A stretch of 63,739 nt of DNA, filler included, from Platydemus manokwari (lineage: Eukaryota): NCBI GenBank assembly GCA_037951405.1. It is 5 parts of 5 records of this genome, joined end to end, with 100 filler letters (N's around TTAATTAATTAA, not from the genome) between each part and the next. Parts side by side here need not be neighbours in the genome. Positions count along the whole stretch, not along the records: positions 1 to 14,111 come from JBBMOY011528078.1; 4 more parts are not named here. One strand, given 5' to 3'. The notes under the pieces are model-generated. The model was given only the letters and a program-made list of their open reading frames with translations, was not told the DNA's origin and did no database searches. The translations under genes and the position numbers were made by a program. Of this stretch, positions 3,801-55,600 are shown in pieces. Position 1 is the stretch's first letter; each line of letters begins with the position of its first letter.

Positions 3801-4847
3801 AGAGATGATAATAAGTGCTTGACTTATAATTTTCATCAGTTATACTTTACAAATTGTAAGCCACAATTATTTGATAAAGCATTATATCTAATCAAATTAT
3901 TTAAACAAATTCATATTTTTAATAAAAATTCGGAATTAAATCTTATCAATTTCGATTAATTTTAAAATCCTCACACAAATTAGTCTCTGATGCACCTAAT
4001 GGAAGTGTTCATTCCAATTATTCTTATTCTTAAAGATTGATTTACTCACATTAAACATACGAAATCATGACAGTTACCTGAGAAATATTGAATATATAAT
4101 ATTTTAAAGTAAAAAGCCATAAGATAATTTTCATATTAATTAGGCCGCCGAAGACCGAGCAAATAGACTCAATACAGAAGTAGCTCGACTTGCAGACGAA
4201 TTAAGACAAGAACAAGATAATTACAGACAGGCAGAATCATTAAGAAAGCAATTGGAAGTCGAAGTTCGAGAAATAACAGTAAAGCTTGAGGAAGCAGAAG
4301 CTTTTGCCACAAGAGAAGGCCGAAGAATGGTGCAAAAATTACAGGTTTCAGATATAGATTTGATGATATATTCATTGTAATATATTTCAAACGACAGGCA
4401 AGAGTGAGAGAATTGGAGTCAGATATGGAAGCTGAAGCTCGTCGTGCCAAAGATAGTGCAGCCCAAGCAAGGAAATTTGAGAGACAGTGGAAAGAATCCC
4501 AACAACAAGCCGATGATGACAGACGTATGGTATTGGAATTGCAGGATTTATTGGAGAAAACACAAATGAAAATGACAACCTACAAACGACAAGTTGAAGA
4601 ACTAGTAAGTTTAAAAAACAGAAAAGGATTCTTTAAACACCTTAAATTTCAGGAAGAAGTAGCTTCAATAACAATGAGCAAATACCGCAAGGCTCAACAA
4701 TCGATTGAGGAAGCAGAACATCGGGCTGATATGGTCGAAAGATCCATGACAATGAGACACACTTCTGGACCTGGAATTCGATCGATTTCAGTTACAAGAG
4801 AAGTTAACACTAGCTTGAGAGGAAACAGATCCACTAGTATTTTGTGA
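888..4847 (+). CDS. Prm: Paramyosin, complete 15-exon gene
   Basis: Manual splicing gives [29 protein letters not shown]|[19 protein letters not shown]|[21 protein letters not shown]... through [35 protein letters not shown]|AAEDRA and [11 protein letters not shown]|ARVRELE to [12 protein letters not shown]. This is colinear with flatworm (schistosome-type) paramyosin. Approximate exons: 888-974, 1032-1088, 1138-1224, 1282-1448, 1711-1788, 1840-2084, 2137-2333, 2385-2518, 2677-2893, 2939-3179, 3227-3485, 3534-3764, 4144-4344, 4398-4604, 4653-4847. AATAAA lies near 4939. Confidence 0.96.
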
Positions 4848-6314: not shown

Positions 6315-9060
6315 TGGAGTATTAAGCAATTTATTAAACCAAAATATTTGCCGCTCATCTTTGACAGTATTTTTTACGACATCTCAAGAAAATAGCTCCA
6401 GCAAGCAGAACTGTACAGGTTTAAGTGATTAGGCCAAGTATCAATCAACCCGCTCCAGAGACCAGTCTAAAGAAACAAATAGGAGAAAGAAAATTCCAGC
6501 ACGAAACCTCCACGAGTTAGAAGAGTTTTTCTGATTTTAAACTAAAAATTATTTTGAACCTTATATTTTCTTAGCTTGATTTTCGCCAGAACTAGATTAA
6601 ATTGATTTTTGATCCTATATAAAAAGCTGGAAATCAGTTGAAGACAATGAAAAAATTTGACGCAAGCAACTAGAAGTCAAAACAATCAGACCAAACAAAC
6701 CAAAAACTTAAGAAAATTCAATTTTCTTGCTAGCAGTGTTCTGGCAGCAACTGAAAGTACTTTTGAAAGTATAATCAAATCGAACGTATACCGGCATTCA
6801 AAAGGATTTGGGGCACAAAGCACCCTGACTCAAAGAGATCTTTTATCATGAAAATTCTATTTGTTTTGTTCAACAATGAGTTTCCTTCAAACCTTCCGTG
6901 TAGTGGTTAGAATTTTATCAATTGTAGACGAGTTGACGAAGTTCGCAAATGAGAAGATCAACCAGAGCCAATATCGCAAGACTTGGATTGTTTTTAAGCC
7001 AAGATCCGTAAGAATCAAGAATGAATTGACTAACCTGAAATCCCGAGAGAAACCCGATCGTTCCATGCATAGACTTTTGTCCTAGCTCACAAAATATGTA
7101 GCTCGATTAAATGATGGCGAACCATCAGAGAAGAACAGTTCGAAATATAAAGATTTTTAAGAATTCAAGTTTCTCAGTCTTTTTCTCATCACGAAGTCGT
7201 AGTTAGTTCACTTCTCAATTCCGGATTGTTACAATAATAGCCGCACTTACTAGGGTTGAAAGTCAAATGGACCTTAGAAGCCAAGTCAAATATCCTACCT
7301 AACCTATCAGCAATCCCCGCTGCGTATGCCGAAATAATAACTAAGTCATCTGCATAGGGTAACATGAAGAATTCCATCTCAGACAATGTGAGAGGACGTG
7401 GAAAATTATCACAACATTTAACATTAAAGTAAAAAACAAGACAGGACAGAATCATAGACAAGGAACACCCTTGTTTCACACCCTTAACAACCTTAATCGA
7501 CGGAGTTATTATTCCTGCACAGTGTTTAGTAGTTGAAACATTTTCATGAAGTTCTTAAGCAAATTAATTTTACCAGAGGCACAATCACTCTTTGCAAGAG
7601 TTCATGAGTTAACCATCCTCTGAAAGTAGTACTTTCTAATTCTCAGACATTAAATGGTCACAAGTAATCCAGCGAAGAATTCTATTGTTCAGAATCATAC
7701 AAAAGATTCTGTAGGACGTGTCCATCATCGCAATTGGTTGTCAAGATGAAACTAAATGAGTTTGACCATCTTTGAGTGATTTCAGAATAAGACTAGTCTT
7801 AAACCTCTTCCATTGACCCGGCTACACTCTTTCGATATAATAAGATTATAGAGTTTATAAAGAAAAACAAAATGTGAGTCAATCTCGTACCAATCAACAA
7901 ACAAAAGATTATCATTTCCAGGAGCGGAGTTACTTGATTTTTTAAATGCATTAAAAATTTACTCAATAGTAATTGAATCCTTTGTAAAGTTATCCTCAGA
8001 ATAAGGCAAGACTATATTCAAATCAGGAAAAGGCAGTAGGAAATCATAGGTGAAATGGTTCGTAATTTCCTCTATATTAGACAAAGAAGTGGGAGTCGAT
8101 GATGGAAGAATACGCTTCACCACCTTTGGCATAATATTATATTCCTTCCTAAGTTCAAAGACCTATCTAATGTGTTTTTCCCAATAATTTAATAAATAAG
8201 ACTTATGTTCACTTATATTGGCAATAAAAGCAAGCCAATGGTCATTGTTCCAATGGATAACCCAATGTCAGATGTTCTTATGCTCCGAAACGGGAAATTA
8301 TCATATAATATATTCGTTTTCAAGTGAGTAATAGCAATAGCAGGTAGTGGGGGTATGAAAACTATTCCACTCTTACCCGACAATCTCAGGTGGATAAGAC
8401 CTTCAATCGCTGGTCTGCTTAGCAATTCAGAAATAAGATCTTCTTCCCCTAACGGAAACTTCATTAAAATTTCATCATCCAAAGACAGAGATTCAATTTA
8501 ACTTTTGGGTTAACACTTTGCGACAAATAATGCTGTTTGAAGTCAACAGTAACCACAAACTAACAATAACACAGAGTACCAGAACTAAAGATATCTGTAA
8601 CCTTTGTTTCTTTATAGGTGCAATATTTGTATAACAAAGTAAAGAAAGACTTTTTAATTGCACACAAGGCACACCAAACCTTAGAGTCTGAACACGCTTC
8701 AAAAATCGTCGGACCTATAGTATTCGTATCAGATATAGTAATAATAACTATATTAGAAACCAGTATTAAATCAGAGGTTATAGTACCGCCAAGTGGTTTA
8801 TAATCAGTTAGTTCTTGAGAATCAAAAATAGATGGGGATGATGTAAAAGAATCATCACTGTAAAAACCAAATAAATCTGTACTCTATTAAAAGTGTTGGC
8901 AATTATATAATCATCTTCTTTCCATTAGATAGATCGACGTCGTGTATATAAACGCCACATGTCGTCGAAAAAGGGATATTAGCATAGTCAAATGGTAACA
9001 TTGCTTCATCAATTAGGTTATCAAGTAGAGATTCATAAAGTTTGTCATCAAAATCATTCA
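6315..9060 (-). mobile_element. Degenerate non-LTR retrotransposon (RLE-type, NeSL/Utopia-like): RT domain and flanks
   Basis: Minus-strand RT motifs with stops and frameshifts: SAPGND, AMMDTSYRIFCMILNNRILRW, GVKQGCSLSMIL, LPYADDLVIIS and LTFNPSKC (ORF 7189-7479). Confidence 0.85.
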
Positions 9061-9074
9061 CAGCAATATATGAT

Positions 9075-9445
9075 TTATCTACAACTTTTGGTCATAGCTA
9101 TTAAGCTTTTTGGTTGTTCATTGCTCTGCATGATTCATTTGACAGTTCTTGATTCATAGATATCTTGGATCCCCATCAATTCTTCTATCATACTTTCTAA
9201 TGCTTGAATGTTGTCTTTCAAATCATAACCAACTATGATTTTCCCTTAAACATAGTGATTCACTTTTTGACAGGTTTCTTCGGCATCATAAGCATTTCTG
9301 AGATTGGTTTCATTTAATCAGCATTTGAGACAAACGTCATTCTCAAGAATTATTTGGCCTTTGTATCTTCTTAGACTGACTCATACAGGATTCTTTTTTC
9401 CGTAGAAATCGGTGATCATTTTTACATCGAGGTATATCATGCAGA
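9075..9445 (-). pseudogene. REXO4/ISG20-like DEDDh 3'-5' exonuclease remnant inside a mobile element
   Basis: A single frame reads MIYLDVKMITDFYGKKNPV*VSLRRYKGQIILENDVCLKC*LNETNLRNAYDAEETCQKVNHYV*GKIIVGYDLKDNIQAL...GIQDIYES...PKSLIAMT. It aligns by eye to REX4-family motifs LDCEMV, RVSIVN..G, SGI.PE.L and KGRILVGH.L.ND.K.L. Confidence 0.7.
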
Positions 9446-10599
9446 TTTTTCTCCTCCTGACCCGTTAGTGTTTGCAGCTTTCAATAACATGACAACTGTC
9501 GTTTAAAATTTTCCAATGGAATTCTCACTAGGCTGCCTGTGTTGAACTTTTTCGGTCTTCGATATTATTGACTTTCATAGAGATCAATTTCGACTTATTA
9601 CTTTCTTTCTCAGTTTTATTTTGAGTATGTTTTGGTTTTATCATCAGGACAGTTATCAAAAAGACTATGACTATTAAGTATATCCTACTTTATGGTTTGC
9701 ATTTCCGATTTTAACTTCTTTCTTCATTTTCCTTTATGATATTTATATTTAGGATGTATTTTTGGGTTTGTGTTGGTTGCATTCTTAAGGTTTCTTTTTT
9801 TTTACTTTAAATGATAGATATCTTCTTTCTTATATTTATTTCTGTGCACTATTGAAGGGTCTTTTTTCTTTTTCTTTTTGATAAACAGGTCGGTGTTTAC
9901 TACTTTTACAATGACATACGGTTCTTCATTTATCATTTGTAATTTTACGAATTTCCTTAGTTTGCTTCTGGGTCATAAACCCTTAGTTTATACTCTACTT
10001 TAAATTCATAATTACATGTCTTTTTATCATGATAATTCTTATGTTGTTTCTGTTTGAATTTAAGGTTTAATTGAGCTTGTCAGTATATGTATCATGATTT
10101 TTCGTACTGAGTCTATTGGCATTGATGCATCCATTAAATGCATTAGATAACGTGATAAATAGTCGGTTGATTCATTTATTACTATATTATAACCCAACGA
10201 GCTTAGTTTTTTGGTTTGTTTTTTATTTACGAAATTTGATAACATGATTTGAAGCATTAGATTGTCTCACTCAGCTAATGCATCGCTTGTGGTCAACATG
10301 GGGACGTAATGATTTTCTTTATTTTGAACATTCAGTGACTTCTCTTATGAAATTTCTTAATTAGTCTTGTCTCCTATCAGTTTTATCTTCTTCTCGTTCC
10401 TCTTTTATCAATATGCAATATGTCCCCCTACTCAATTTTTGGTTTATCATATTTTTGTATATTTTGTTTAAATTTTCCTTCTTATTTTTTTCTTTCTGAA
10501 TTGCATTCACTTCAAGATAATTTTCAGGGTTTTATAATTAATAACATGATTTTATTCGTAATGTCTGTAAGTCCTAATATAATTCTTTATGTTTTCCTA

Positions 10600-10825
10600 T
10601 TAAATTCAATCTTCTTAATACTACAAATTATGCTTTTTCTATTACTTTGAACATGTGATCTATCTTAATACTTCCCATTATCAGACTAAATATCACTTTC
10701 CCTACTGTTATTATAGATGCTCCTGTTGCTCTGGTTAATGTATCATTAACTGTTTCTATTTTTCCCATCTATAGATGCCTTTACATTTCTTACATTTATT
10801 TGCACAGCTATTACTGGTCTTTTTA
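10600..10825 (-). pseudogene. Retropepsin-like (retroviral aspartic protease) remnant
   Basis: KRPVIAVQINVRNVKASIDG resembles RP.I.V.ING..VKALIDTGA. After an internal deletion or frameshift it continues LTRATGASIITVGKVIFSLIMGSIKIDHMFKV, which resembles the flap and C-terminal strands. Confidence 0.6.
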
Positions 10826-11159
10826 AAGCATAATTTGCACAATTCTTACTTAATATAATTGAAGTTGTATGTTCAGATATAACGGTTTATTTTACCCTTC
10901 TTCTCATGATAATTTCTTTCTTTCCACAGTTTCTCTTAATTGCATTTTTGCTTGTAGATCTTTTTATACAAACACCAGCTTTATTTCTTTTTGCTGTTGA
11001 TGGTGATTGGTAAAATTCCTATGGGTATGCATGGGTTTTTCCCTTAACCGGTTGATGCATAGCTTGCGGTTGTATTAGTTGCGGTGGTATTTTAAAATAA
11101 TAATCTCTTGGTTTAAACAATTGTATGTATGTATGTATGTAATATTTCTGGCACTTTAC

Positions 11160-12860
11160 TTATATCAGATGTCTTGCTGTTAGTGTGAATATGAAACACA
11201 TCGGAATATATCCTTTAATGTCTTTGCGAAGATGTTTGAAGAGAGTATATTTTTATCAATCCCGCTATGAATTATATTCAATTCATAGGAAAAACGAAAT
11301 CACTTGTCCTATTTCTTGAAAAATTCCATAAAAACTATAGAAAATGCCTTTTATTGCCTTCTCAGAATGGTCTGTGAATAGTAATGCCTCATAGTGGAAT
11401 GATCCATCTAAACTTCTTTGCAACACCTTATGTACCATGTTTCTTATGACCTTTTCTCTTTCAAACGGGAATAACATGTGTTTTCTTGCTTTTTCTATGT
11501 CGTCAGTTGCATATATCCAATTATTATTCATATTCATAATTGGTTTAAAGGCTAAATTTCTTGCCGGTCCATTTGCTTTTAGTGTTTTTGCATCACTTCG
11601 AGGTTTCTTATCATCCATTCATATCCATCCTCCATTATCTGAGAGAAATACATAATCCATTACATTTGAACAAGTGTCTCTAGGCTGAGCTTTGTAATAA
11701 TATTGTTAATATGATTCCCCTAACTGGTTACAATAATATTTTTTGGTTGTTATATATAATTGGTATCTCTCTGAAACAATGCTCGTGTTTCAGTACTACT
11801 AGGTTAATTATTTTCTTGCACTTAAATGTGTAGATTACTTCTCCTACTACTCGAGTAAATGTTTCTTTTTCTTCTAATATTATTAGTGCTACTAACCCCG
11901 GCTTTGTTATTGCTGTGGCCTATTTGGTCTTTAACACCTCGACTTATCTTGCAGTCATTTAATATAAGATCCATCCTTGGGCTAAATAGTAGAAATAGCC
12001 GAGTTTGTTATTAAAGCACTGTACGAATTTTATATCCAGTTTTTTTTAACTTTCTTCTTTGCATTCTTATCTGATTTTTCTTCGTAATAAACCACTATAA
12101 CCATTTAAGCACTACTCTTATCTTGGCTGTTATGTATGGATCTCATTGCGCTTTTTCCTTCTTCACCCATGTATATTGTTGGTGTTTATTTCATGCTCAT
12201 TTTAAATCTTCCCCTAATACTATCGGTTAAATAACTCTCCACAAGCTTCGTCACTTTAAATATTTTTCCATTTACTACGTGCTCTCACTTTCTTAGTTTG
12301 AATATTAAATGTAACTCGAAAATTCTTTAATTCTTTGAGGTAATGTCTTAATTCTACAACATCTGCTAATGTTTTATCACAAACTTGATATTTTTCTCTT
12401 TAGAATTATCCTCCTCATCCAGCCAGTCTTGCGTGTTCTATTGAATGTCTAGTGATTCTCTTTACCAATATCATCGCATATCCTTGTAATGTATAATATA
12501 TACTTTTTAAAATGTTAGTTTACATTTTATTTCTGTTGGCATTTCTAGCATTGGTGCCATGTTGGTTCTAATATTGCTGTGTATGCTCCTGATGGCCATG
12601 AAGAATAATTTTTTAACTCCTGATACATTAATTTGTAATCTCTGATTTTTTCAAACAGAAATTCTGACTTTTGGTCCACGTACATTTCCTTAGCTATGAA
12701 TTTGCCTCTGGTTATTCATTTTTATCTAACAATGAATATTTTTGTTCCCAATGTGGTTTCCCACAATCATATTCATCAATTCCTGCATCTACTCCTTCAA
12801 TCAATCCTACTATATACATGATAAGTAATATCTTAACTATATTGGTAAATTTAGATTTTT
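11160..12860 (-). pseudogene. Chuvirus-like (Jingchuvirales-type) envelope glycoprotein, degraded
   Basis: Signal-like KILLIMYIVGLIEG is followed by YDCGKPHWEQKYSLLDKNE. Later motifs are KPGLVALIILEEKETFTRVVGEVIYTFKCKKIINLVVLKHEHCFREIPIIYNNQKILL*P and WIYATDDIEKARKHMLFPFEREKVIRNMV, then hydrophobic FYSFYGIFQEIGQVISFFL and YTLFKHLRKDIKGYIPMCFIFTLTARHLI. Motif order matches chuviral G (YDC..SLLD; GEV...KC..C..E.P; GIY..D....R.H..FP.E; TM). Confidence 0.75.
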
Positions 12861-14009
12861 GCTGAGATTTTTTCTTTTCTAATTGTTTTTTTCCTTTTGA
12901 ACAACGAGTTTTCCATTTTCTATCATTTGTTCTAACATTGATTGAGCTAATTTTCTTCATTATTGATTTGATTAATTTCATTTTCATATCAATTTGGTAT
13001 TAATTCAATTCGGTTATTTTATTATTCATTTACTTTATTGTTGTTTACAGTGTTTTTAACATTTTACCGGTCGTTTTCTCTTCATTTTTTATATTCATAA
13101 CTTCCTTAGTCGTTTCTTTGTCAGTTATCTTATTGCTTATTCTGTTTATTTCTTTTCTGTATATAGTCATGCAATGCTCTAATGATTTTATATGGGACTT
13201 TTCATATGTATGTACGGATTTGGCCTTACCACTATGTGCTTGTAGATACCGTTTAATTTTCGCCTGTACTTCTTCTTTTGATTAAATTCTTTCATGGCCT
13301 GTGCATACATTTGTATTTTTTGAGGCTGATATTTCTTCAATAAGTGCTTGTGCTCTATATTTCATTCTTCATTTTACTTTTTCTTCCAAACCAGCATCTT
13401 TCGGTGGTATACCTTTTTCATTTGATATTATAAGGTAATCATTTATTATGATCTTAATTTTGATTTTACTTTTAATTCCTAGTAGCCTTCATCTAGGGGT
13501 CTTAGTAGGTGTTCTTCTTTAAATCCAGTTTCTTTTTACAACTTATCGTCTCTTTTCTCTTGTTCCTCATCTATGTCTTGTATTTGTTCTGCTTGTTATT
13601 TAATTTCTCCATTGGTATCATAGTTTAAGGCTATTAGTTAAAAAGACAATAATAGTAAAATCAAGAAGGTGCAAATAAATAAGAACTGGTGTCCTAAAGT
13701 TAAATAAATTTGAAAATCAATTAATCAAGAAATTGATGAATCGAAAAAAGTTCATAAATTTGATAAATTAAATTCTGCATTGATCGTTGATAAACTTGAT
13801 ATTAATTCCAAAAAGGTGTTGAGAAGAATTTTGGATTAATTAGATAGGAAAATGCGCAGCTCAAATAAAAGTAATTTATTAGAAAGATTGAATGAGTAGG
13901 CAAACAAAAAAGTAATAGTGCGATTAAATGCACTAATGAAATTGAATATACTAGCACCGATAATGGAATAGGAAATAGTTCCACTAAGGAAAATTACGCT
14001 AATAGTTTT

Positions 14010-14111: not shown

Positions 14112-14211
14112 NNNNNNNNNNNNNNNNNNNNNNNNNNNNNNNNNNNNNNNNNNNNTTAATTAATTAANNNNNNNNNNNNNNNNNNNNNNNNNNNNNNNNN
14201 NNNNNNNNNNN
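14112..14211. other. Artificial scaffold gap with six-frame-stop linker (also 24666-24765, 39909-40008, 54731-54830)
   Basis: An identical N44-TTAATTAATTAA-N44 structure occurs four times. Confidence 0.97.
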
Positions 14212-15228
14212 AGAACTCTAATTTTTATAAATTCTAGTATACCTCATAGACTAATATCACAGACCTCTTAAATTACACATTTTGCAATTGATCAATTTTA
14301 TCAACATTTAGAGTAGTATTATATACCGGTTTTTTGGTGTCACTTGCCACCTGAATGCCGATACGAATGTAGTGAACTTACCACGCAAATTCGAAATCAT
14401 GGATGACCACCGATAATAATATGACATATTAATTTAGTTATGTCATTATTTTCTCTCTGTTCATTAAGAAAGAAAATTTTAGCTGGTCTCATAGTTTTAG
14501 GAGGAATGATAATATTATTATTTAAAAAGAAATCTTCAGGATTAATATAAATGTTAAAAAATTATAAATAAAGTTAGGAATAGAAGTTAAATATTTATAT
14601 ATAGTTTTGTAATCTATTACTTCTAAATTCTTATTTTTATAGAATTAAAAAAAGAGTTTCATCAAGATTATCAAATAACGAAAGCTAAAGGGATTTATCC
14701 ATATAATTATATAAACTCATATGAAATTTTAAATCAAACAGAATTACCATCAATTGAAAGCTTTTATTCGAGGAAAACATTAGAAGGAATTACAAACGAA
14801 GAATATATGAGAGCAAAACGTAAAAAATTTATGGGATTATACAATCTTGTATTTAAAACAAGATATAAATGGAATAATTTTGGAATGGAATAATATTTTT
14901 AATTCTACTACTTTTCGCTTTATGTTTATTAGACTTTTCATGAGCTTTAAAAGCTTGAATTGTCTTAAAACTTTAATTACAAATTCGGCATTGGTGGCTC
15001 ATTTTTTAAGCTTTATTTTTTAATTAGAACTCTAATTTTTATAAATTCTAGTATACCTCATAGACTAATATCACAGACCTCTTAAATTACACATTTTGCA
15101 ATCGATCAATTTTATCAACATTTAGAGTAGTATTATATACCGGTTTTTTGGTGTCACTTGCCACCTGAATCCCGATACGAATGTAGTGAACTTACCACGT
15201 AAATTCGAAATCATGGATGACCACCGAT
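14212..15228. repeat. About 200-bp direct repeat (14212-14414 and 15026-15228)
   Basis: agaactctaatttttataaattctagtatacc...ggatgaccaccgat occurs twice, with three substitutions seen by eye. Confidence 0.9.
14642..14830 (+). pseudogene. Protein-primed DNA polymerase B fragment (Polinton/Maverick-like)
   Basis: ELKKEFHQDYQITKAKGIYPYNYINSYEILNQTELPSIESFYSRKTLEGITNEEYMRAK matches the KG.YPY.Y...LP...FYS.L...I..E.Y motif of pPolB. Confidence 0.75.
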
Positions 15229-16112
15229 TTGTTTAATTTTTTCTGCTGCATTTCGATGATGAACTGAGATAATACAAAAATATTTTATCTACTTCTTGAT
15301 AACGCTCTTAGTCATAGATTGAAGAAATGTTTTTAGAACATTGAAGTTATAATGCTTCCGAAGAACAAAACTGCTCATCTTCAACCCATGGATGCAGGTG
15401 TAATAAAAAATTTAAATCATTATTGCAGAAAAAAGTTAGTAGTTGATTACATGAACTCGCTTGATCAAACAAAAGTCTTGATTATTAAACTTAAGAAAGC
15501 CATATTGATACTCCATGAAGTTTGGGAAGATGTAAAAGAAGAAAACACCAAAAATTTTTTCAAATAAGTTATTTTAGGTACTCACGGATCTTATGCTGAA
15601 AAAAGCTTGCCATCAGTTCCCGTTCTTGGGACACATAAGAATGAGCTTGACCAAATAATGGTTGAAGAGGATATGATCCAAACAGAAGAAGTCATTGATG
15701 ATTATGAAATCATCTGCATTGTGTAAAGAAGGATACACTTTTGAAGATGTTATACTTTGTGCTGAACATCGTCAAATCTATGACACTTACAACTTAAGTC
15801 CAAGCAATTTGTTCCATGCAATTGAAATTGTCATCTAAGCAAGTTGTTCTTCAAACAGTTTTACTAAAAAAAATAACCAATAAAAATTTAAAAGAAGTCA
15901 AAGTCTATTTACAAAAATTTATTCAAAAGTAAATTCTACAGAAAACTTTTGATGATTTTTTAAATAAATAATTTTCTTCTTCTTAATAACTTCATCATTA
16001 ATATGGTGATCATATAGATTTTATTAATTATTTATATTATTCATTATTTGAATTAATTCACAATGTAAAAGGAAACGACTTCTAATATTTCGGATTAAAA
16101 GGGTTGACAGTA
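15229..16112 (+). mobile_element. pogo/Tigger-family (DDE_1) transposase remnant with 3' TIR
   Basis: LLLDNALSH...IMLPKNKTAHLQPMDAGVIKNL..YCRKKLV...AILILHEVWEDV (ORF 15352-15567). TIR-like CGGATTAAAAGGGTTGACAG followed by TA at 16091-16112. Confidence 0.85.
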
Positions 16113-23150: not shown

Positions 23151-24807
23151 TTGAAAATTAATCAAACTATTTCTAAATCTACTCGTGACGCATATTGATA
23201 AAGAAATAGTAGACTAGTATTAAATTTTATTAATTCAAAGGTTATACAAACATAAAAGTATTTAAACAAATACGCATATAAATAACCTATTTTATATATT
23301 TTATCAATAAAATTAAAAATAATAAAAATATTGATAAATAAAAAATAAAACAATACGAACCAGTCAGATTGTAACACCTACTGATATTCATAATAATTGG
23401 ATAAGAGCAATGAAAACAAATTTTCCTATATATTAAATAAGTCAATTCTTTGATGAGAATTCCAAAATCGCTGATTTCATATTCCGAACTATTTATTCCA
23501 GTTATTATCAAATTGATGTTTGAAAATTCTACGAATATTGGCTTGTAAACACATTTAATGAAAGGATAGTACAAGTAATAAATATGCTCTTCATTGGGTG
23601 ATACTGAGGCCGTGAGTTCATCATCTAAACATAAAATTAGTAAAGTCAACCTTGTTTTATGTTTTAATCAGTTTGACAGAATATTGATAACATCGGTCGA
23701 CATATCTCATCAAATTTTTACAAAAACATTAAAATTATTCATTCACAGATGAATATTCATTTTATCGTTGTTAGTTGTTATTATGTAGCTATTACATATT
23801 GGAAAGTATATTATTACAGATTTATTTATAATTTAATAGGTAAGATAATATTAATTTGACCCATTGTAAATTTATTTATTAAAAAAATAATAAAAAAATA
23901 TTAAATACGTCATGAAAAATACATTGCATATGTAAAAATAAGGTAAAAAACAAATACAAAGTTAAATATTGTATTTTGTTATAGTTACACCAAACAATAA
24001 AATTAATTTATCAAAAAAGAAAATAAAATCATTAAAAATATTATTATAAATATTATTAATACTATTTTTTAATTTAAATATTATTTATTCAAAATTTATT
24101 GATAGCATATTAAATTTAATATTATTTATTTATTTATTTATTCAAAAAATCTTAACATTTTTATAAACATTTGATACGTTGGAACTTTGTTCTAATGTAC
24201 TTGGACGTCTGCAACGAAGCATGGTAATAAAAGCAGGGTAATTTGCAATATATACAAAAGTTTTCAGATTTTTCGTATAGAACCGTATTATTTTTAGATG
24301 TTCGATCAGAGATCTTTCATTTTAGTTGGCTCATTTTTTAATATAATTTTTATATTTTTTATGAATAAAAATTAGACTATTATCAGGACTTTCTAATAAC
24401 TACATTTAAAATAGATAAATTATATCCTTTATTTATCATTAAATAAAATTATAATATGTGATTACTTTTTACAAATGAAGTTATGTATTTAAAGTTTTTA
24501 GCGAATATTTAATAAGTAAATTCAAAGGACTTATGATGACCACATCTTAGACACTATATCATTTAACAGTATAATTAGTATTTGTGTGAAAATAAATTTG
24601 ATTAAGAGTAACCACTTTTAGCAAAAATTTAGCAAATAAGAAAATCTTATTATTGAAAAAGCAAANNNNNNNNNNNNNNNNNNNNNNNNNNNNNNNNNNN
24701 NNNNNNNNNTTAATTAATTAANNNNNNNNNNNNNNNNNNNNNNNNNNNNNNNNNNNNNNNNNNNNTTATGTTTAAATGATTTGGTAAAACAAAAACTTTA
24801 AACAACT

Positions 24808-39730: not shown

Positions 39731-40599
39731 TTATCACATGATTTTAAAATCAATCCAATCAAATTCGACACAATAAATATAAAATACATAAATATAAATA
39801 AATATAAAATGCAATCTACGTGTCGCATAACATCTAATCAACTATATAAAGAAAAATGGAGCCTGTTAAAATTTGGACTTCAATCTTTAGTCATTGTATA
39901 TATCCTTANNNNNNNNNNNNNNNNNNNNNNNNNNNNNNNNNNNNNNNNNNNNTTAATTAATTAANNNNNNNNNNNNNNNNNNNNNNNNNNNNNNNNNNNN
40001 NNNNNNNNTGACATTATATATATGCATAGTTTTATTGTCAATATTTCCCTTTTTAATGAAGGATTCAAGCTACAATGTTGCTGATACATCTCTACATTAT
40101 ATAAAAAACCGTGTTTTTTTACCATATTATATATATATATATATATTGCTTAATAAATAATAATTACATTCCTTCCTGCATGACTTATTGGCATGTAGAG
40201 CTATAATGTTAAATGCTTAAAATTATAAAATATATTATAAATTCTCTGATAAATGTCCACCGAAAGAAAAGGGTATCATCATGATGCATCGATAATGATA
40301 GAAAATTAATTCATATATAACCCTATTAAATCTGAACAGATTCAGTGAGATTTTAATTGACAAATTTCAGAGTTTAAAATTTTATTTTTTATATTTATTA
40401 ATATTTTTCTAAATGTTTATTTTTAGTTTATTAGTGATTATTTAGAAACAGTATTAATCAGCCTAGAATATGTGGGTACGCGCATTAAGAACTTTGAAAT
40501 AGTGTATGGTGTGTTGAAAATGATATTTAATGAGTAGTGAGACTCTATAATTTACAATTTTCACCGTTAAGATAACTATGGAAAACGATTATGTCATAC

Positions 40600-42913
40600 A
40601 TTATGGTATTAGCTTTACAAATAGTACATTGCTACATTCCAGGCTCCAGTCCTTATACAGCTTCGCAAGAACATCAATCGGGCTATAGTCAATATTCTAC
40701 TCTTCCGCAAAACATATACAGTGCAAATGACACATTCATTACTGTTGGAAACCATCAAGCTGCTAGAGATTGATTCTCCAGATCTCACAAATACTATCTA
40801 CTGCTAGATCAGCCTTGTATATCGTCGAACTCTCTAGATTTGCCCCAAAGAAACAAGTCAAACCTTCATTATTACTTTTCAATTGCCAAACATCTTCAGA
40901 TTTCAAACTTCGTAGTAAATTTATCAGTGAGTCCAAAAAAACAATTAGAAGTATTCTTGGGTCCTCAACACCAAAATCTTAACCAACTTAGGAATAGATC
41001 ATAACACAATACACAATTCCAGCTTCCCCATTACTGCCATTAGAATTCTCTCCTACTCTATCTCGGCACTAAGATAACTCAAATCTCAAAGAAATCACAA
41101 TGGCAGAGATTGAAAACACATTCCAAAAATTCTCATAATCACCAGAGGGTTTAGACGGCATTAAGTTCAGAGACTGGAAGACTATAGATCCCGAACATGG
41201 TTTCTCGCTAACGATCTTAAACAAGATTCTTCGAGCAAAGGCCATACCAAATTAATGGGAAGAATGCAACACCATTTTCCTCCTTAAACTAGGCAAATAA
41301 TTAACCTCACATATTGTGTCCTAATGGTGCCAATAACTCTCCTAGACACATCATACCGAATTTTTGCAACTATTCTGAACTTACAAATTATTAATTAGAT
41401 GGAAGCTTGCAACCTTCTCTCTCTCTACCAAAAGGTAATGTTCGCCTCTGACGAATGTGCTGAACACAACGCCTTCTAATTTACCCTATCCGAATACACA
41501 ATTCAACAACATCAAGACTTACACCTCTGCTAGATCAATTTGAAAGAAGCATCTCCAAGCATACCACAAGACTTAATCTTGAGAAAATGGGATGCAACTC
41601 TCACTACCTTCAAATAATTGAAACCTTATACAACTACCCTATCCATTAACAATCCATCAAAGGCAATTTTCATCCCTAGGATACGCAGATGACATTGTCG
41701 TAGACAACTATAGAGAAAATCTTGAACAGAGATTCAATCATCTGATCCACAATACCGCTGGCATTCACCATGTCATAAATGTTACAAAGTGGGGTTACTA
41801 TTCCAGAAATCCAATGAGTCGTATTACAATACTTGATGAATTGGTTCCGGTTATTGAACACAATAACCTCTACAAATACTTGGGAGTTCTATTCGGCCTT
41901 CCAAAGCGAATGTCGATGACCAACATACTTCAATCGATCATATCAGACTTCGAAGCCATATCGGAGTCTTCACTGCATCCCTCTCAAAAGTTTCAAGCAT
42001 GCAGCACTTTTCTGCACTCAAAGCTCCAGTTTCACTTCCAAATTCAACTGGTTAAAAATACTAAATTCAACTCTGAACTGTGATCACTAATGAGGACAAC
42101 GAACTAGCCCAATCATTTGATAAAAATATCCGACTTATCTCTCGTAAAATACTGAGGCTGTAAAGCTCAAAAACCTGCAACAATTACAAATTCTACTCTC
42201 CACGCAAACTCGGAGGAATAGACCTAACTACTTCAGAGCATTGTTTGTGACTAGACTCGTATTCTTCATATTTATATCCACTGCCTGTCTACTCCAGGAC
42301 TAGCTTCAAAACTTCAAGCAATAATTTTATATAATTTAGGAAATTATCGACAGTCACTTAGCTTCGACACGAATATCGATATAACCCCATCGGAATCTAC
42401 GAGTAAACTACGGCCTAACTTGGTGATGCGTAACAAAAACAAATTTCAAGTCTACATCGTCGACCTCATAATTTTTTTTGATAAAAGTGACAACTTCCAA
42501 CGTCAATATAGAATTATTACCAAAGAGATCCTCAGGAAAACGAGATTCGCAACTCATCTCGATGCCATATCCATGACGACAAGATCCCATCGAATATCGG
42601 CATGAATAAAAAATAAATCACGTTTATCTCGGTATTCCTAATAACGACATTGCTCAGAAATGCTTACGCGCCATACAAGTCTCATACTGATCGAAGAAAT
42701 CCCAAAGAACGTCTATTGGGATCGACTACTAACTCTCGAGTACTGGGCAGCCAAAACAACAAGTATATAACAGAACTACTTGGTGATGTTGCAAAGCAAA
42801 TGAGAAGACTTCAAATGAAGAAATCTATAACCAGAATATTTGATATATCAATCTTAATAATTCAATTTAAAAACCGACGTGAGGACTTGTGGGACCCTGT
42901 CGTGAAAAATGTT

Positions 42914-52600: not shown

Positions 52601-55600
52601 GACCTACTTTCGTTATAATGAATTTTGGCGCATGAAATAATTTTAATTTTATATATAACTGCTATGTTTGATTTATTCGTATAATTCAGTAAATATCTCA
52701 TTTTTAAGATGTCTACTAGTGACAAAACATGTTCCTATTCTAATCACAACACTTTTCTATGATTATTTGAGTTAAATTTAAATTTTTATAATTATAAATC
52801 GAGTTAGTTAATTTTAGATATGTTTAATAATATTGCTTATTTTTATAAAATAATTGTAAACATTGATAATATTTCTCAATTTGCGTTTAATGTTAAAAAG
52901 GGGTCGTCGCTAATTTTCAATAAATTGCAACTCGACCTACTTTTTTCATTTTTTCAAATAATCAAATTTTAGGTGATTTTTAAGCTCTAGTTTATTTAAT
53001 ATTTGATTTCAAACAACTAAAATTCTTCTTAAGCACTTAAATAAAAAAAATTGAAAATGTTTTTAAAGAATATAATTAAATAAACTATATAGAATTTTGC
53101 AATACACTCAACACATTTAAAATGTCATTTTAGGACCTTTTTTTAATTTTAGCCACGTTTTTCAATATTAATAAATATGAAAGCTTTGATGAAAGAAATA
53201 TTTAACAATTATGAGAAAAGATCAAAAATAATATTAAATTGGAATATAATTCACCTTAGATTTCACAACCTTGTACTTGAAAATATTTCAGATGGTTTAT
53301 AATTTTTTATTGGTTCTTATAATTGATGTTGAACGAAACTTGAAATTAAATTGCGATATATTTTTCCCTTGATCGATTGCTTTAGTTTGTCAGGAGATTA
53401 AACAAACAGCTCTCTGAAGCTTTGATTTAACAAGATATATCATTAATTATTTTGATAATTATTTCCAGTAGAGATCCGATATTTGCATCGAAGCATTTTT
53501 GAAAATTCGGTCCTATTGTATTTTGTCATTATGAATCTTTAACAAACTCACTTGATTTACATCTTCAGAAATGTGATCCCAAAACAAAGTGGATTAATAA
53601 GTAATCACACTTAATGTTGCCATTATAATTTGAAATAGTGCTCATCACATTACAAACTGAGTGCATTAGGCAATAAGTCTTTAATTTTGTTAGCAGTTAT
53701 GAGGATGTTTGACAATCGTTGCAGTTGTTTACGGTCAATTGTACATAAGATAATAAATACTAACAATGTCTTCTTCAAAAGAGACTACAAACTGTGATAC
53801 TACTTAACCATGGAATGTACTTCATTTAATTTATTTATTATAAAATTATTAAAGAATATTCTTCATTAATATCCATAATCAGCTTTTCGAAATAGATTAG
53901 TTCCTCTTATTAAGTATAACATAACAATCTTCGAAATATTGAAAATAGAAAAATACTGTGGCAGGAGTTGATGTTTCTGATAACAAAATTCTAAAGTGAA
54001 AAAAGAAAAAAAACCGCAATAAAAAATTAACAAAAAAACCAAAAATGACCTGAACAAACAAACACAAAAATTATTAAAATAAAACATCCAAATAATTAAT
54101 TAAAAATGACTTTATTCTTGAACATTGATTTGAATAATAATTATATCAAGTAATTGAAACAATCTTAGAAAACTCAAAGCCGGCTCCACCCAAAAAGCAT
54201 GGGGAAATAATTGTTATTATCATAAAGAATACAAAAGATCTAAAACTAAATTCAGAACTAAAAACACCTAAAGCACAAAACTAAATACAAAAGGTAACAA
54301 AAATAATGAAAAACAACAACCTCTCCGTCAAAAACTAAACAAAGTTTCTAACTTTAAACAAATCTATTACGATACAATGTACTCTTCATATAACTCACAG
54401 CAAGAATATAGGCTAAATATATAGCAACAAAAAAATTAGAAAAACAACATATTAAACAAACGGAAAAGCGTGAAAGAAATCATTTCAACTATATCAGAAA
54501 CAATAAAGAAAAGACAATATATTTCATTAACAATAAAAATCTCACTAAGTTTTGGGTTGGGAAAAAAAACAAAACTAAAGTACGACCATTAGAAAATAAA
54601 AACTAACAACTTTTAAAGTAAGCTGAAAAGAACGAATACAAAATCACTGATTGTAAATACCAGGTTGAGTCAAAAGTTATTCATGTTTTTATGCAGGTAT
54701 TTTATTAACACAAATTGTTATAACGCTGAANNNNNNNNNNNNNNNNNNNNNNNNNNNNNNNNNNNNNNNNNNNNTTAATTAATTAANNNNNNNNNNNNNN
54801 NNNNNNNNNNNNNNNNNNNNNNNNNNNNNNTGTGCGTGGCAAGTCAAAAATTTTCATTATCAAGAAATCAATGATGAATATGGATTATTTAAATTACTAT
54901 TATAAATAGATTGATAGATTATTTAAATTACTATTATAAATTCAAGTGTGGTCGGGATAATGAACAAGTACCAAAAAATCTTGATAACGAAACCTCACAT
55001 TACTTAATTCGTTACATTACAAGATGGCATGGAAGACACGAAATATCCGTACAAAATCTAATTATAAGGCACGAATTACAAATAATTTCCATTTCAAAAG
55101 GAAAATCAATAATTTTATAATGCCCCTACTTTAACGTGTTACTGTTTGGAAATATTCTTATGAAAAATCTAAAAATAATGTGCCTTTCAGATTATATTTA
55201 TATTGGTTCGGTAATTTTTTTACAAAAATTTTATGCTCTAAGAATTCGACAAATGCTTTTAAAATCCGATAGGAATATAGATTTGGAATGAATACATTTT
55301 CAACTAATAGATTAATAGAGTAAATTAATAGATTAATAATATAATGCATTTTCAATAGATTCGATTTGTGTAAGTTTGTGATTATCCTCAATTAAATTGT
55401 TCTCACTTGAAAATCAATACAAAAATTGTTCAGAATAACTGCCATTTGTCACTTTATTACATAAAAACAAAAATCATTTTTATTAGTCAAACTGTTTATT
55501 CGTTAAACGTTTATTTTTTGGCTTGAACAGATAGCATTATATTTTATCGCCATTAATGTTTAGTAAATATACCAACATTTAAATTATTTGAACGCAAATA

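What the first reader, a model, noticed from the sequence alone, without database searches (positions are those of the whole stretch)
9075..13620. Composite viral-like retroelement: chuvirus-like envelope, then retropepsin, then ISG20/REX4-like exonuclease on one strand
Seen: three recognisable decayed domains lie colinear on the minus strand within about 3.8 kb, with no intron-like interruptions: glycoprotein 12860-11160, protease 10825-10600 and DEDDh exonuclease 9445-9075. Further unassigned coding-like sequence lies 5' (13000-13620) and between them. Known: LTR retrotransposons have captured viral fusogens (chuvirus G in BEL/Pao, phlebovirus-like in nematode Cer elements) and DEDDy exonucleases (bdelloid LTR elements), and planarians carry giant Gypsy-like elements with extra domains. 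Inference: this is a fossil copy of an enveloped, possibly infectious flatworm retroelement with its own RNA exonuclease, a combination I do not recognise as described. RT and integrase are not visible in this copy.
Basis: partly seen in the sequence, partly recalled or inferred. Interest (0 to 1): 0.88.

Follow-up and report, generated by a model that had tools for sequence, protein, structure and literature searches.

The report
Decayed enveloped retroelement with RNA exonuclease
This is a broken remnant of a retrovirus-like jumping gene whose virus-type envelope gene sits in front of its protease, a layout already described in flatworms, and the RNA-trimming enzyme gene beside it was likely an extra gene of the same element, which would be a modest new twist.

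Summary
The three domains are real. On the minus strand lie a class III viral fusion glycoprotein (PF24664, 12840-11282), a weak retropepsin (10823-10618) and a truncated ISG20/REX4-like exonuclease (9440-9087). About 2.3 kb with RT and RNase H is missing. The closest relatives are giant gypsy polyproteins ordered env-protease-RT-RNase H-integrase. That layout is published for planarian Burro elements (PMC6431247) and for GAG-ENV-POL errantiviruses of flatworms (PMC13524379). The copy is dead: every gene has stops or frameshifts, and a non-LTR fragment lies where the exonuclease breaks off. The only possibly new part is the exonuclease. Its two nearest intact relatives (L001, L002) are stand-alone ORFs with ISG20-like catalytic motifs, each followed by a conserved polypurine tract and an LTR-like start, so they look like 3' accessory genes of LTR elements. 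No intact element carrying both env and exonuclease could be fetched, so their linkage is inferred (about 0.7). Verdict: new variant of a known kind, interest 0.33.

The parts
12841..13620 (-). A-rich coding-like region upstream of env, unassigned; possibly a decayed Bcl-2-like domain as in relatives (weak)
   Evidence: Profile from 3 relatives scores 4-5 bits; 12-13 of 2000 shuffles do as well. No Pfam hit of note and no hit to stored relatives above shuffles.
11282..12840 (-). env: class III (gB/chuvirus-like) fusion glycoprotein with an N-terminal hydrophobic segment, broken by stops and several frameshifts; tail runs to about 11140
   Evidence: PF24664; profile positions 5-581 of 657; 16 of 18 hits match this part of the query
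10618..10823 (-). retropepsin-like protease, in two frames, broken at the active-site motif
   Evidence: 189 codons after the env pre-membrane motif, against 130-463 in 8 relatives; no Pfam hit
10312..10617 (-). site of an inferred internal deletion of about 2.3 kb (RT, RNase H, integrase N-half missing)
   Evidence: Protease-to-integrase-motif spacing is about 472 nt here, against 2748-2799 nt in 4 of 4 intact relatives; no RT/RH or IN-N signal
9805..10311 (-). Ty3/gypsy integrase, C-terminal half of the core plus linker and C-terminal domain, in three pieces
   Evidence: tblastn with P0002, P0022, P0016, P0025; profile scores; P0016 is Integrase_p58_C/MLVIN_C-like
9441..9804 (-). A-rich linker, probably the decayed N-terminal part of the exonuclease ORF; unassigned
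   Evidence: Same strand bias as the rest of the element; no significant match to the N-terminal part of P0007/P0028
9087..9440 (-). ISG20/REX4-like exonuclease, broken: 4 stops, catalytic acidic positions partly lost, last catalytic motif absent (3' truncation)
   Evidence: 31% identical to P0007 and P0028
6400..9070 (-). Decayed non-LTR retrotransposon fragment (RT at about 7497-7231) lying where the exonuclease breaks off; boundaries approximate; not part of the LTR element
   Evidence: RVT_1 E 7.8e-6; sharp compositional change at about 9100; related to a second non-LTR piece at 41330-41822

Best explanation
This is a dead, internally deleted copy of an envelope-before-polymerase Ty3/gypsy retroelement, and the broken RNA exonuclease gene beside it was likely the element's own 3' accessory gene. 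Shown: env, protease and the integrase C-half lie in the same order as in intact giant gypsy polyproteins, and the RT/RNase H block is missing. Established for the family: such elements make a polyprotein, cut it with the retropepsin, reverse-transcribe inside a gag particle and integrate. The class III glycoprotein is predicted to fuse membranes and allow cell-to-cell spread; this is untested. Inferred: after integrase the ancestor carried a separate ORF for an ISG20/REX4-type 3'-5' RNA exonuclease just before the polypurine tract and 3' LTR, as in L001 and L002. It was probably expressed from its own subgenomic RNA, because L001 and L002 share a conserved non-coding block upstream of the ORF. 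My preferred role for the nuclease is counter-defence, trimming or destroying host small RNAs or immunogenic element RNA (about 0.45 of the functional options). Processing of the element's own RNA or primer is next (about 0.35). After insertion the copy decayed, lost about 2.3 kb, and had its 3' end replaced or interrupted by a non-LTR element.
For: Env hits: 12 of 16 were Pfam-scanned; all 12 are PF24664 and 7 of 12 carry a downstream protease. Three further cluster members read env-PR-RT-RH-IN (3 of 3). One hit has a Bcl-2-like domain before env (P0010, E 1e-3, below cut-off), as described for Burro. Integrase pieces are colinear. The only exonuclease hit among 1.84 billion proteins is P0007, not a cellular REX4/ISG20. 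Its relatives L001 and L002 are intact intronless ORFs followed within about 120 nt by a shared 13-nt motif, a purine tract and TGTTG (2 of 2 loci); reading this as a gypsy 3' end rests on my own knowledge. Their best solved relatives are ISG20L2 (E 3e-13), ISG20 (6e-10) and plant small-RNA-degrading nuclease 1 (9e-4), and the His/Asp motif is present. The A-rich sense strand runs unbroken from 13400 to 9200 (A 0.39-0.51) and matches the L001/L002 ORFs (0.40-0.42), then drops to about 0.3 below 8850. Stop load is similar in env (9 of 299 codons), integrase (3 of 160) and exonuclease (4 of 118). Precedent: 3' DEDDy exonuclease ORFs in bdelloid LTR elements (PMC5408684).
Against: No intact element with both env and exonuclease was seen. 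L001 and L002 are 2.5-kb contigs with only 228 and 419 nt upstream of the ORF and no pol or env in it. None of the 15 env-bearing proteins scanned has an exonuclease domain. The four with a whole integrase continue 466-1542 aa in frame after it, unlike this copy. A search for longer proteins with the P0007 exonuclease found none among 349 candidates (weak). The 360-nt linker does not match the N-terminal part of P0007/P0028. Identity to all relatives is only about 30%, so they are not the same family. No LTR, PBS, PPT or gag was found in the window copy. No function is tested.
Confidence: 0.68

Rival explanations
1. Chimera of two LTR families. Env, protease and integrase come from a Burro-like element; the exonuclease comes from another, possibly env-less, LTR family and was joined here by nested insertion, deletion or a one-off template switch.
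For: No intact env-plus-exonuclease element was found; 0 of 15 env-bearing proteins carry the domain. The linker is unassignable. This copy has already suffered one large deletion, and the region is dense in decayed elements.
Against: Same strand, and exactly the position expected of a 3' accessory ORF, 360 nt after integrase. Composition is unbroken and decay load is similar. No PPT-like or LTR-like signal lies in the linker.
Confidence: 0.22
2. The exonuclease is a processed pseudogene of a host REX4/ISG20L gene that happened to land next to the element.
For: It is intronless and of the ISG20/REX4 type.
Against: No cellular REX4/ISG20 reached E 1e-3 in a full search, whereas P0007 did; ISG20 scored E 0.49. 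The nearest relatives sit before a PPT and LTR-like start.
Confidence: 0.05
3. The glycoprotein is a chuvirus endogenous viral element, or part of an Anakin-like BEL/Pao element, unrelated to the gypsy pieces.
For: The Pfam family is named for negative-strand RNA viruses. Chuvirus G capture by BEL/Pao is reported (PMC12440569 introduction).
Against: The best env relatives are gypsy polyproteins in which env is followed in frame by protease, RT, RNase H and rve integrase. Env-to-protease spacing is within their range, and the integrase pieces match those same proteins.
Confidence: 0.04

Closest known systems
Burro / GYPSM1 giant gypsy elements of planarians (Arkhipova and Yushenova 2019, PMC6431247; section 7 read)
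   Same: A mononega-like fusion glycoprotein lies upstream of the protease. A Bcl-2-like domain before env is seen weakly in one relative (P0010). The paper also reports decaying copies in Dugesia japonica.
   Different: No exonuclease is listed for Burro in that paper. Gag, MATH, BIR and a size above 25 kb are not seen here. No Burro sequence was available, so family membership was not tested.
GAG-ENV-POL 'ancient errantiviruses' with HSV/gB-type ENV (Chary and Hayashi 2026, PMC13524379)
   Same: Env precedes pol and is class III. Reported in Nematoda, Bryozoa and Platyhelminthes (9 flatworm elements in supplement 1, 6 from Schmidtea mediterranea).
   Different: The main text has no occurrence of 'exonuclease', 'DEDD' or 'accessory'. 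Those elements are intact; this copy lacks gag, RT, RNase H and LTRs.
Bdelloid Juno/Vesta LTR elements with DEDDy ORF3 (Rodriguez et al. 2017, PMC5408684; passages read)
   Same: A 3'-5' exonuclease carried as a separate third ORF of a gypsy-type element.
   Different: Theirs is RNase D-like DEDDy and occurs in lineages that lack a bona fide env. Here it is ISG20/REX4-like with a His in the last motif of the intact relatives, and lies beside an env.
ISG20 / ISG20L2 / REX4 exonucleases (PDB 1wlj, 7yw5)
   Same: Sequence and predicted fold of the intact relatives.
   Different: The relatives add about 180 aa of unknown N-terminal sequence and a C-terminal tail. The window copy is broken and truncated.

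Membership tests
GAG-ENV-POL Ty3/gypsy errantivirus (gB-type env) | class III (gB/chuvirus-like) env | tested here: met
   PF24664 above cut-off; full-length profile map
GAG-ENV-POL Ty3/gypsy errantivirus (gB-type env) | env upstream of pol on the same strand | tested here: met
   env, then protease, then integrase
GAG-ENV-POL Ty3/gypsy errantivirus (gB-type env) | gypsy-type pol order PR-RT-RH-IN | tested here: inconclusive
   PR and the IN C-half are present in order; RT and RH are missing in this copy and present in 4 of 4 long relatives with a whole integrase
GAG-ENV-POL Ty3/gypsy errantivirus (gB-type env) | gag upstream of env | tested here: inconclusive
   no match in the 780 nt upstream; the contig ends at an N linker at 14112; relative P0015 has CCHC knuckles before env
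GAG-ENV-POL Ty3/gypsy errantivirus (gB-type env) | LTRs, PBS, PPT, target-site duplication | tested here: inconclusive
   none found around this copy; both ends appear truncated; PPT and LTR-like start present in exonuclease relatives L001/L002
Burro / GYPSM1 | sequence identity or RT phylogeny with Burro1-4 | not testable with these tools
   no Burro or Repbase sequence held; RT missing in this copy
Burro / GYPSM1 | BCL2-like domain directly before env | tested here: inconclusive
   4-5 bits, 12-13 of 2000 shuffles as good
Burro / GYPSM1 | giant size (above 25 kb) and about 4,900-aa polyprotein | not testable with these tools
   truncated copy; relatives reach 4099 and 4844 aa
ISG20/REX4-type DEDDh exonuclease | three Exo motifs with His in the third | tested here: inconclusive
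   motifs present in relatives P0007/P0028; in the window copy the first two are degraded and the third is absent
Anakin (BEL/Pao with chuvirus G) | BEL/Pao-type pol | tested here: not met
   integrase pieces and env match polyproteins with gypsy-type RVT_1/RT_RNaseH/Integrase_H2C2/rve; no Pao-type Pfam family appeared

The most novel reading that the evidence does not exclude
A lineage of enveloped GAG-ENV-POL gypsy viruses of invertebrates carries an ISG20/REX4-type DEDDh RNA exonuclease as a 3' accessory gene: a host antiviral-type nuclease turned into a suppressor of small-RNA defence. L001 and L002 would be intact 3' ends of this lineage or a sister lineage.
Probability: 0.5. Interest if true: 0.55.

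Novelty: new variant of a known kind. Interest (0 to 1): 0.33.

Why it matters
The envelope-before-protease architecture is already described, so that part adds one more, dead, example. If the exonuclease is a native gene, it adds a second exonuclease family (ISG20/REX4-like, beside the bdelloid DEDDy type) to the accessory genes of LTR elements, and the first I found in an env-carrying one. The intact natural ORFs in L001 and L002 allow a direct enzyme test of an open question raised in PMC5408684: what retroelement-borne exonucleases do, RNA processing or countering piRNA silencing.

Tried and rejected
No genome is held for the window, so other copies could not be compared. The word-based homologue search with the env C-terminal ORF found nothing; the full HMMER search did. 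Searches for DNA of intact elements found nothing in viral contigs or genome contigs; the one metagenome scan gave 2 loci. L001/L002 lie in no held genome. No RNA holder was listed. In one search summed contig depth is high over env, protease and integrase bins (about 70-1900) and near background over the exonuclease bins (about 19, against 14 for the long contig). The tool states that depth is no copy number, so I draw no conclusion, but it did not support a many-copy exonuclease. AlphaFold on the 3-sequence alignment failed (pLDDT 34.8), so no fold search was run. The idea that the missing exonuclease C-terminus resumes beyond the non-LTR piece (6400-5600) was rejected: best scores -2.0 to 0.3 bits, matched by 19-508 of 1000 shuffles, and no target-site duplication above 8 nt. 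TGGTATCA at 13613 as a PBS was rejected: wrong strand, and 3 copies occur in the window, about what I estimate by chance. The gypsy RT-RH at 21761-20174 was not assigned to this element: it lies beyond an assembly linker, is in the wrong order, and is only 31-40% identical to the relatives' RT, which are 52-87% identical to each other. No Rfam hit in L001/L002. The upstream region 13620-12841 stays unassigned.
Full report
Observation. The finding lies in the first contig of a window made of several contigs joined by N linkers. Frames read with X at stops gave PF24664 (Monjiviricetes fusion glycoprotein) in two frames, E 5.5e-10 and 5.6e-11. A profile from 7 intact relatives maps colinearly over 12840-11282, with several frame switches. 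The protease is weak: no Pfam hit, but two colinear pieces at 10823-10618 each beat 2000 of 2000 shuffles on a profile of 11 protease domains from relatives. The exonuclease at 9440-9087 has no relevant Pfam hit itself, but matches P0007 at E 2.8e-7 and the P0007/P0028 profile at 55 bits. One contig of run X1 spans 6442-11299 without differences; this run may be the window's source, so it is not independent.

Between protease and exonuclease lie three colinear pieces of a Ty3/gypsy integrase: the core C-half, the linker and the C-terminal domain (10311-9805). The protease-to-integrase distance is about 472 nt, against 2748-2799 nt in 4 of 4 intact relatives. About 2.3 kb with RT, RNase H and the integrase N-half is therefore missing; no RT signal remains there. 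Below about 9070 the strand bias changes abruptly, and a decayed non-LTR element with RVT_1 follows. The rest of the exonuclease was not found beyond it.

Relatives. The full HMMER search gave 18 hits: 16 to env, 1 to the integrase C-terminus, 1 to the exonuclease. I Pfam-scanned 12 of the 16 env hits. All 12 are PF24664, 7 carry a protease downstream, 2 also RT, and one has a weak Bcl-2 match before env. Three further cluster members of 3003-4844 aa read env-PR-RT-RH-IN. None of these 15 has an exonuclease domain. The window's env C-terminal piece is 28-33% identical to them, while they are 36-64% identical to each other, so the window copy is from a more distant family or heavily decayed.

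The exonuclease family. P0007 has one further relative among proteins of similar length, P0028 (2 hits among 5195 candidates), and none among longer ones. Their DNA was found as L001 and L002. Both hold an intact, intronless ORF of 464-475 aa. The best solved relatives are ISG20L2, ISG20 and plant SDN1, and the Atlas look-alikes are ISG20/REX4 clusters (scores under 0.9, leads only). About 100 nt after the stop, both loci share a 13-nt motif, a purine tract and TGTTG, then a repeat-bearing non-coding region. From my own knowledge of gypsy ends this is a PPT and the start of a 3' LTR; a second LTR could not be seen on these 2.5-kb contigs. Upstream they hold only 228 and 419 nt, with a shared non-coding block and no pol or env. 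So the exonuclease family looks LTR-borne, but it is not shown to be env-linked in an intact element.

Is the exonuclease part of this element? For: same strand, 360 nt after integrase, the position of a 3' accessory ORF; unbroken A-rich sense composition; similar stop load, env 9 of 299, integrase 3 of 160, exonuclease 4 of 118 codons; and nearest kin that look LTR-borne. Against: no intact double-carrier; env relatives with a whole integrase continue in frame into other sequence; the linker matches nothing. I put the linkage at about 0.7 and the single origin of env, protease and integrase at above 0.9.

How it likely worked. The life cycle follows from established Ty3/gypsy biology: polyprotein, protease cleavage, reverse transcription, integration. 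The class III glycoprotein is predicted to give membrane fusion; this is untested. The exonuclease was likely a separately expressed 3'-5' RNA exonuclease. I favour counter-defence against small-RNA silencing over processing of the element's own RNA; the only lead is family resemblance to ISG20 and SDN1. This copy does nothing now.

Comparison with the literature. PMC6431247 (section 7 read whole; passages) describes Burro with a mononega-like env between BCL2 and protease. PMC13524379 (abstract, passages, first part of section 5, section 22, and the flatworm rows of supplement 1) reports GAG-ENV-POL gB-type elements in Platyhelminthes, Nematoda and Bryozoa; its main text has no 'exonuclease'. 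I did not search its other supplements, and figures are not held. PMC5408684 (passages) describes DEDDy ORF3 in bdelloid LTR elements that lack a bona fide env. I also saw PMC12440569 (part 1 of 5), PMC6338049 (passages) and PMC11410931 (passages); Dezordi et al. only as search listings. Grohme et al. 2018 is not held and Repbase is unavailable; either could already note a 3' exonuclease in Burro. Searches showed no paper describing an ISG20/REX4-type exonuclease in an env-carrying gypsy element, judged from listings. Three earlier scan notes on other genomes reached the same 'already described' view of the env layout; they are unchecked notes, not evidence.

Host. Not determined by any tool. 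AT-richness, a myosin-tail gene and the Burro-like layout fit a flatworm, but the layout also occurs in nematodes and bryozoans.

Verdict. The feature is real. The architecture is known; the exonuclease is a possibly new accessory gene whose linkage is inferred. New variant of a known kind; interest 0.33.

Noticed in passing
L001:1723-1763 and L002:1894-1932: Both exonuclease ORFs are followed by the same 13-nt motif, a purine tract and TGTTG, then an LTR-like region with dispersed 41-49-nt-spaced repeats.
   Followed up: partly
L001:28-141 and L002:202-314: A conserved non-coding block lies upstream of both exonuclease ORFs; it could be an internal promoter or splice acceptor.
   Followed up: no
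P0002, P0021, P0022, P0025: These polyproteins run on 466-1542 aa after integrase with hydrophobic segments and no Pfam family apart from further protease repeats; P0022 has 6 protease stretches. This may be an unannotated second membrane protein.
   Followed up: no
P0028 residues 55-139: The N-terminal part of the intact exonuclease ORF is predicted, at low confidence, as a beta-rich domain of no known family.
   Followed up: no
window 21761-20174 (-): A separate decayed gypsy RT-RNase H in the next contig.
   Followed up: partly
window 41330-42605 (+): A second decayed non-LTR element related to the one at 9070-6400.
   Followed up: partly
window 6120-5670 (-): An A-rich coding-like stretch beyond the non-LTR piece; it matches none of the stored proteins.
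   Followed up: partly
window 4290-4847 (+): Host exon(s) of a myosin-tail/paramyosin-like gene (Myosin_tail_1 E 1e-3); the paramyosin label is recalled.
   Followed up: no
window 15337-15567 (+); 14212-14414 and 15026-15228: A DDE_1 transposase fragment and a 203-nt 99%-identical direct repeat starting at a contig edge.
   Followed up: no
window 14112-14211, 24666-24765, 39909-40008, 54731-54830: Artificial N linkers with a central all-frame stop: the window is several contigs joined, so order across them means nothing.
   Followed up: yes
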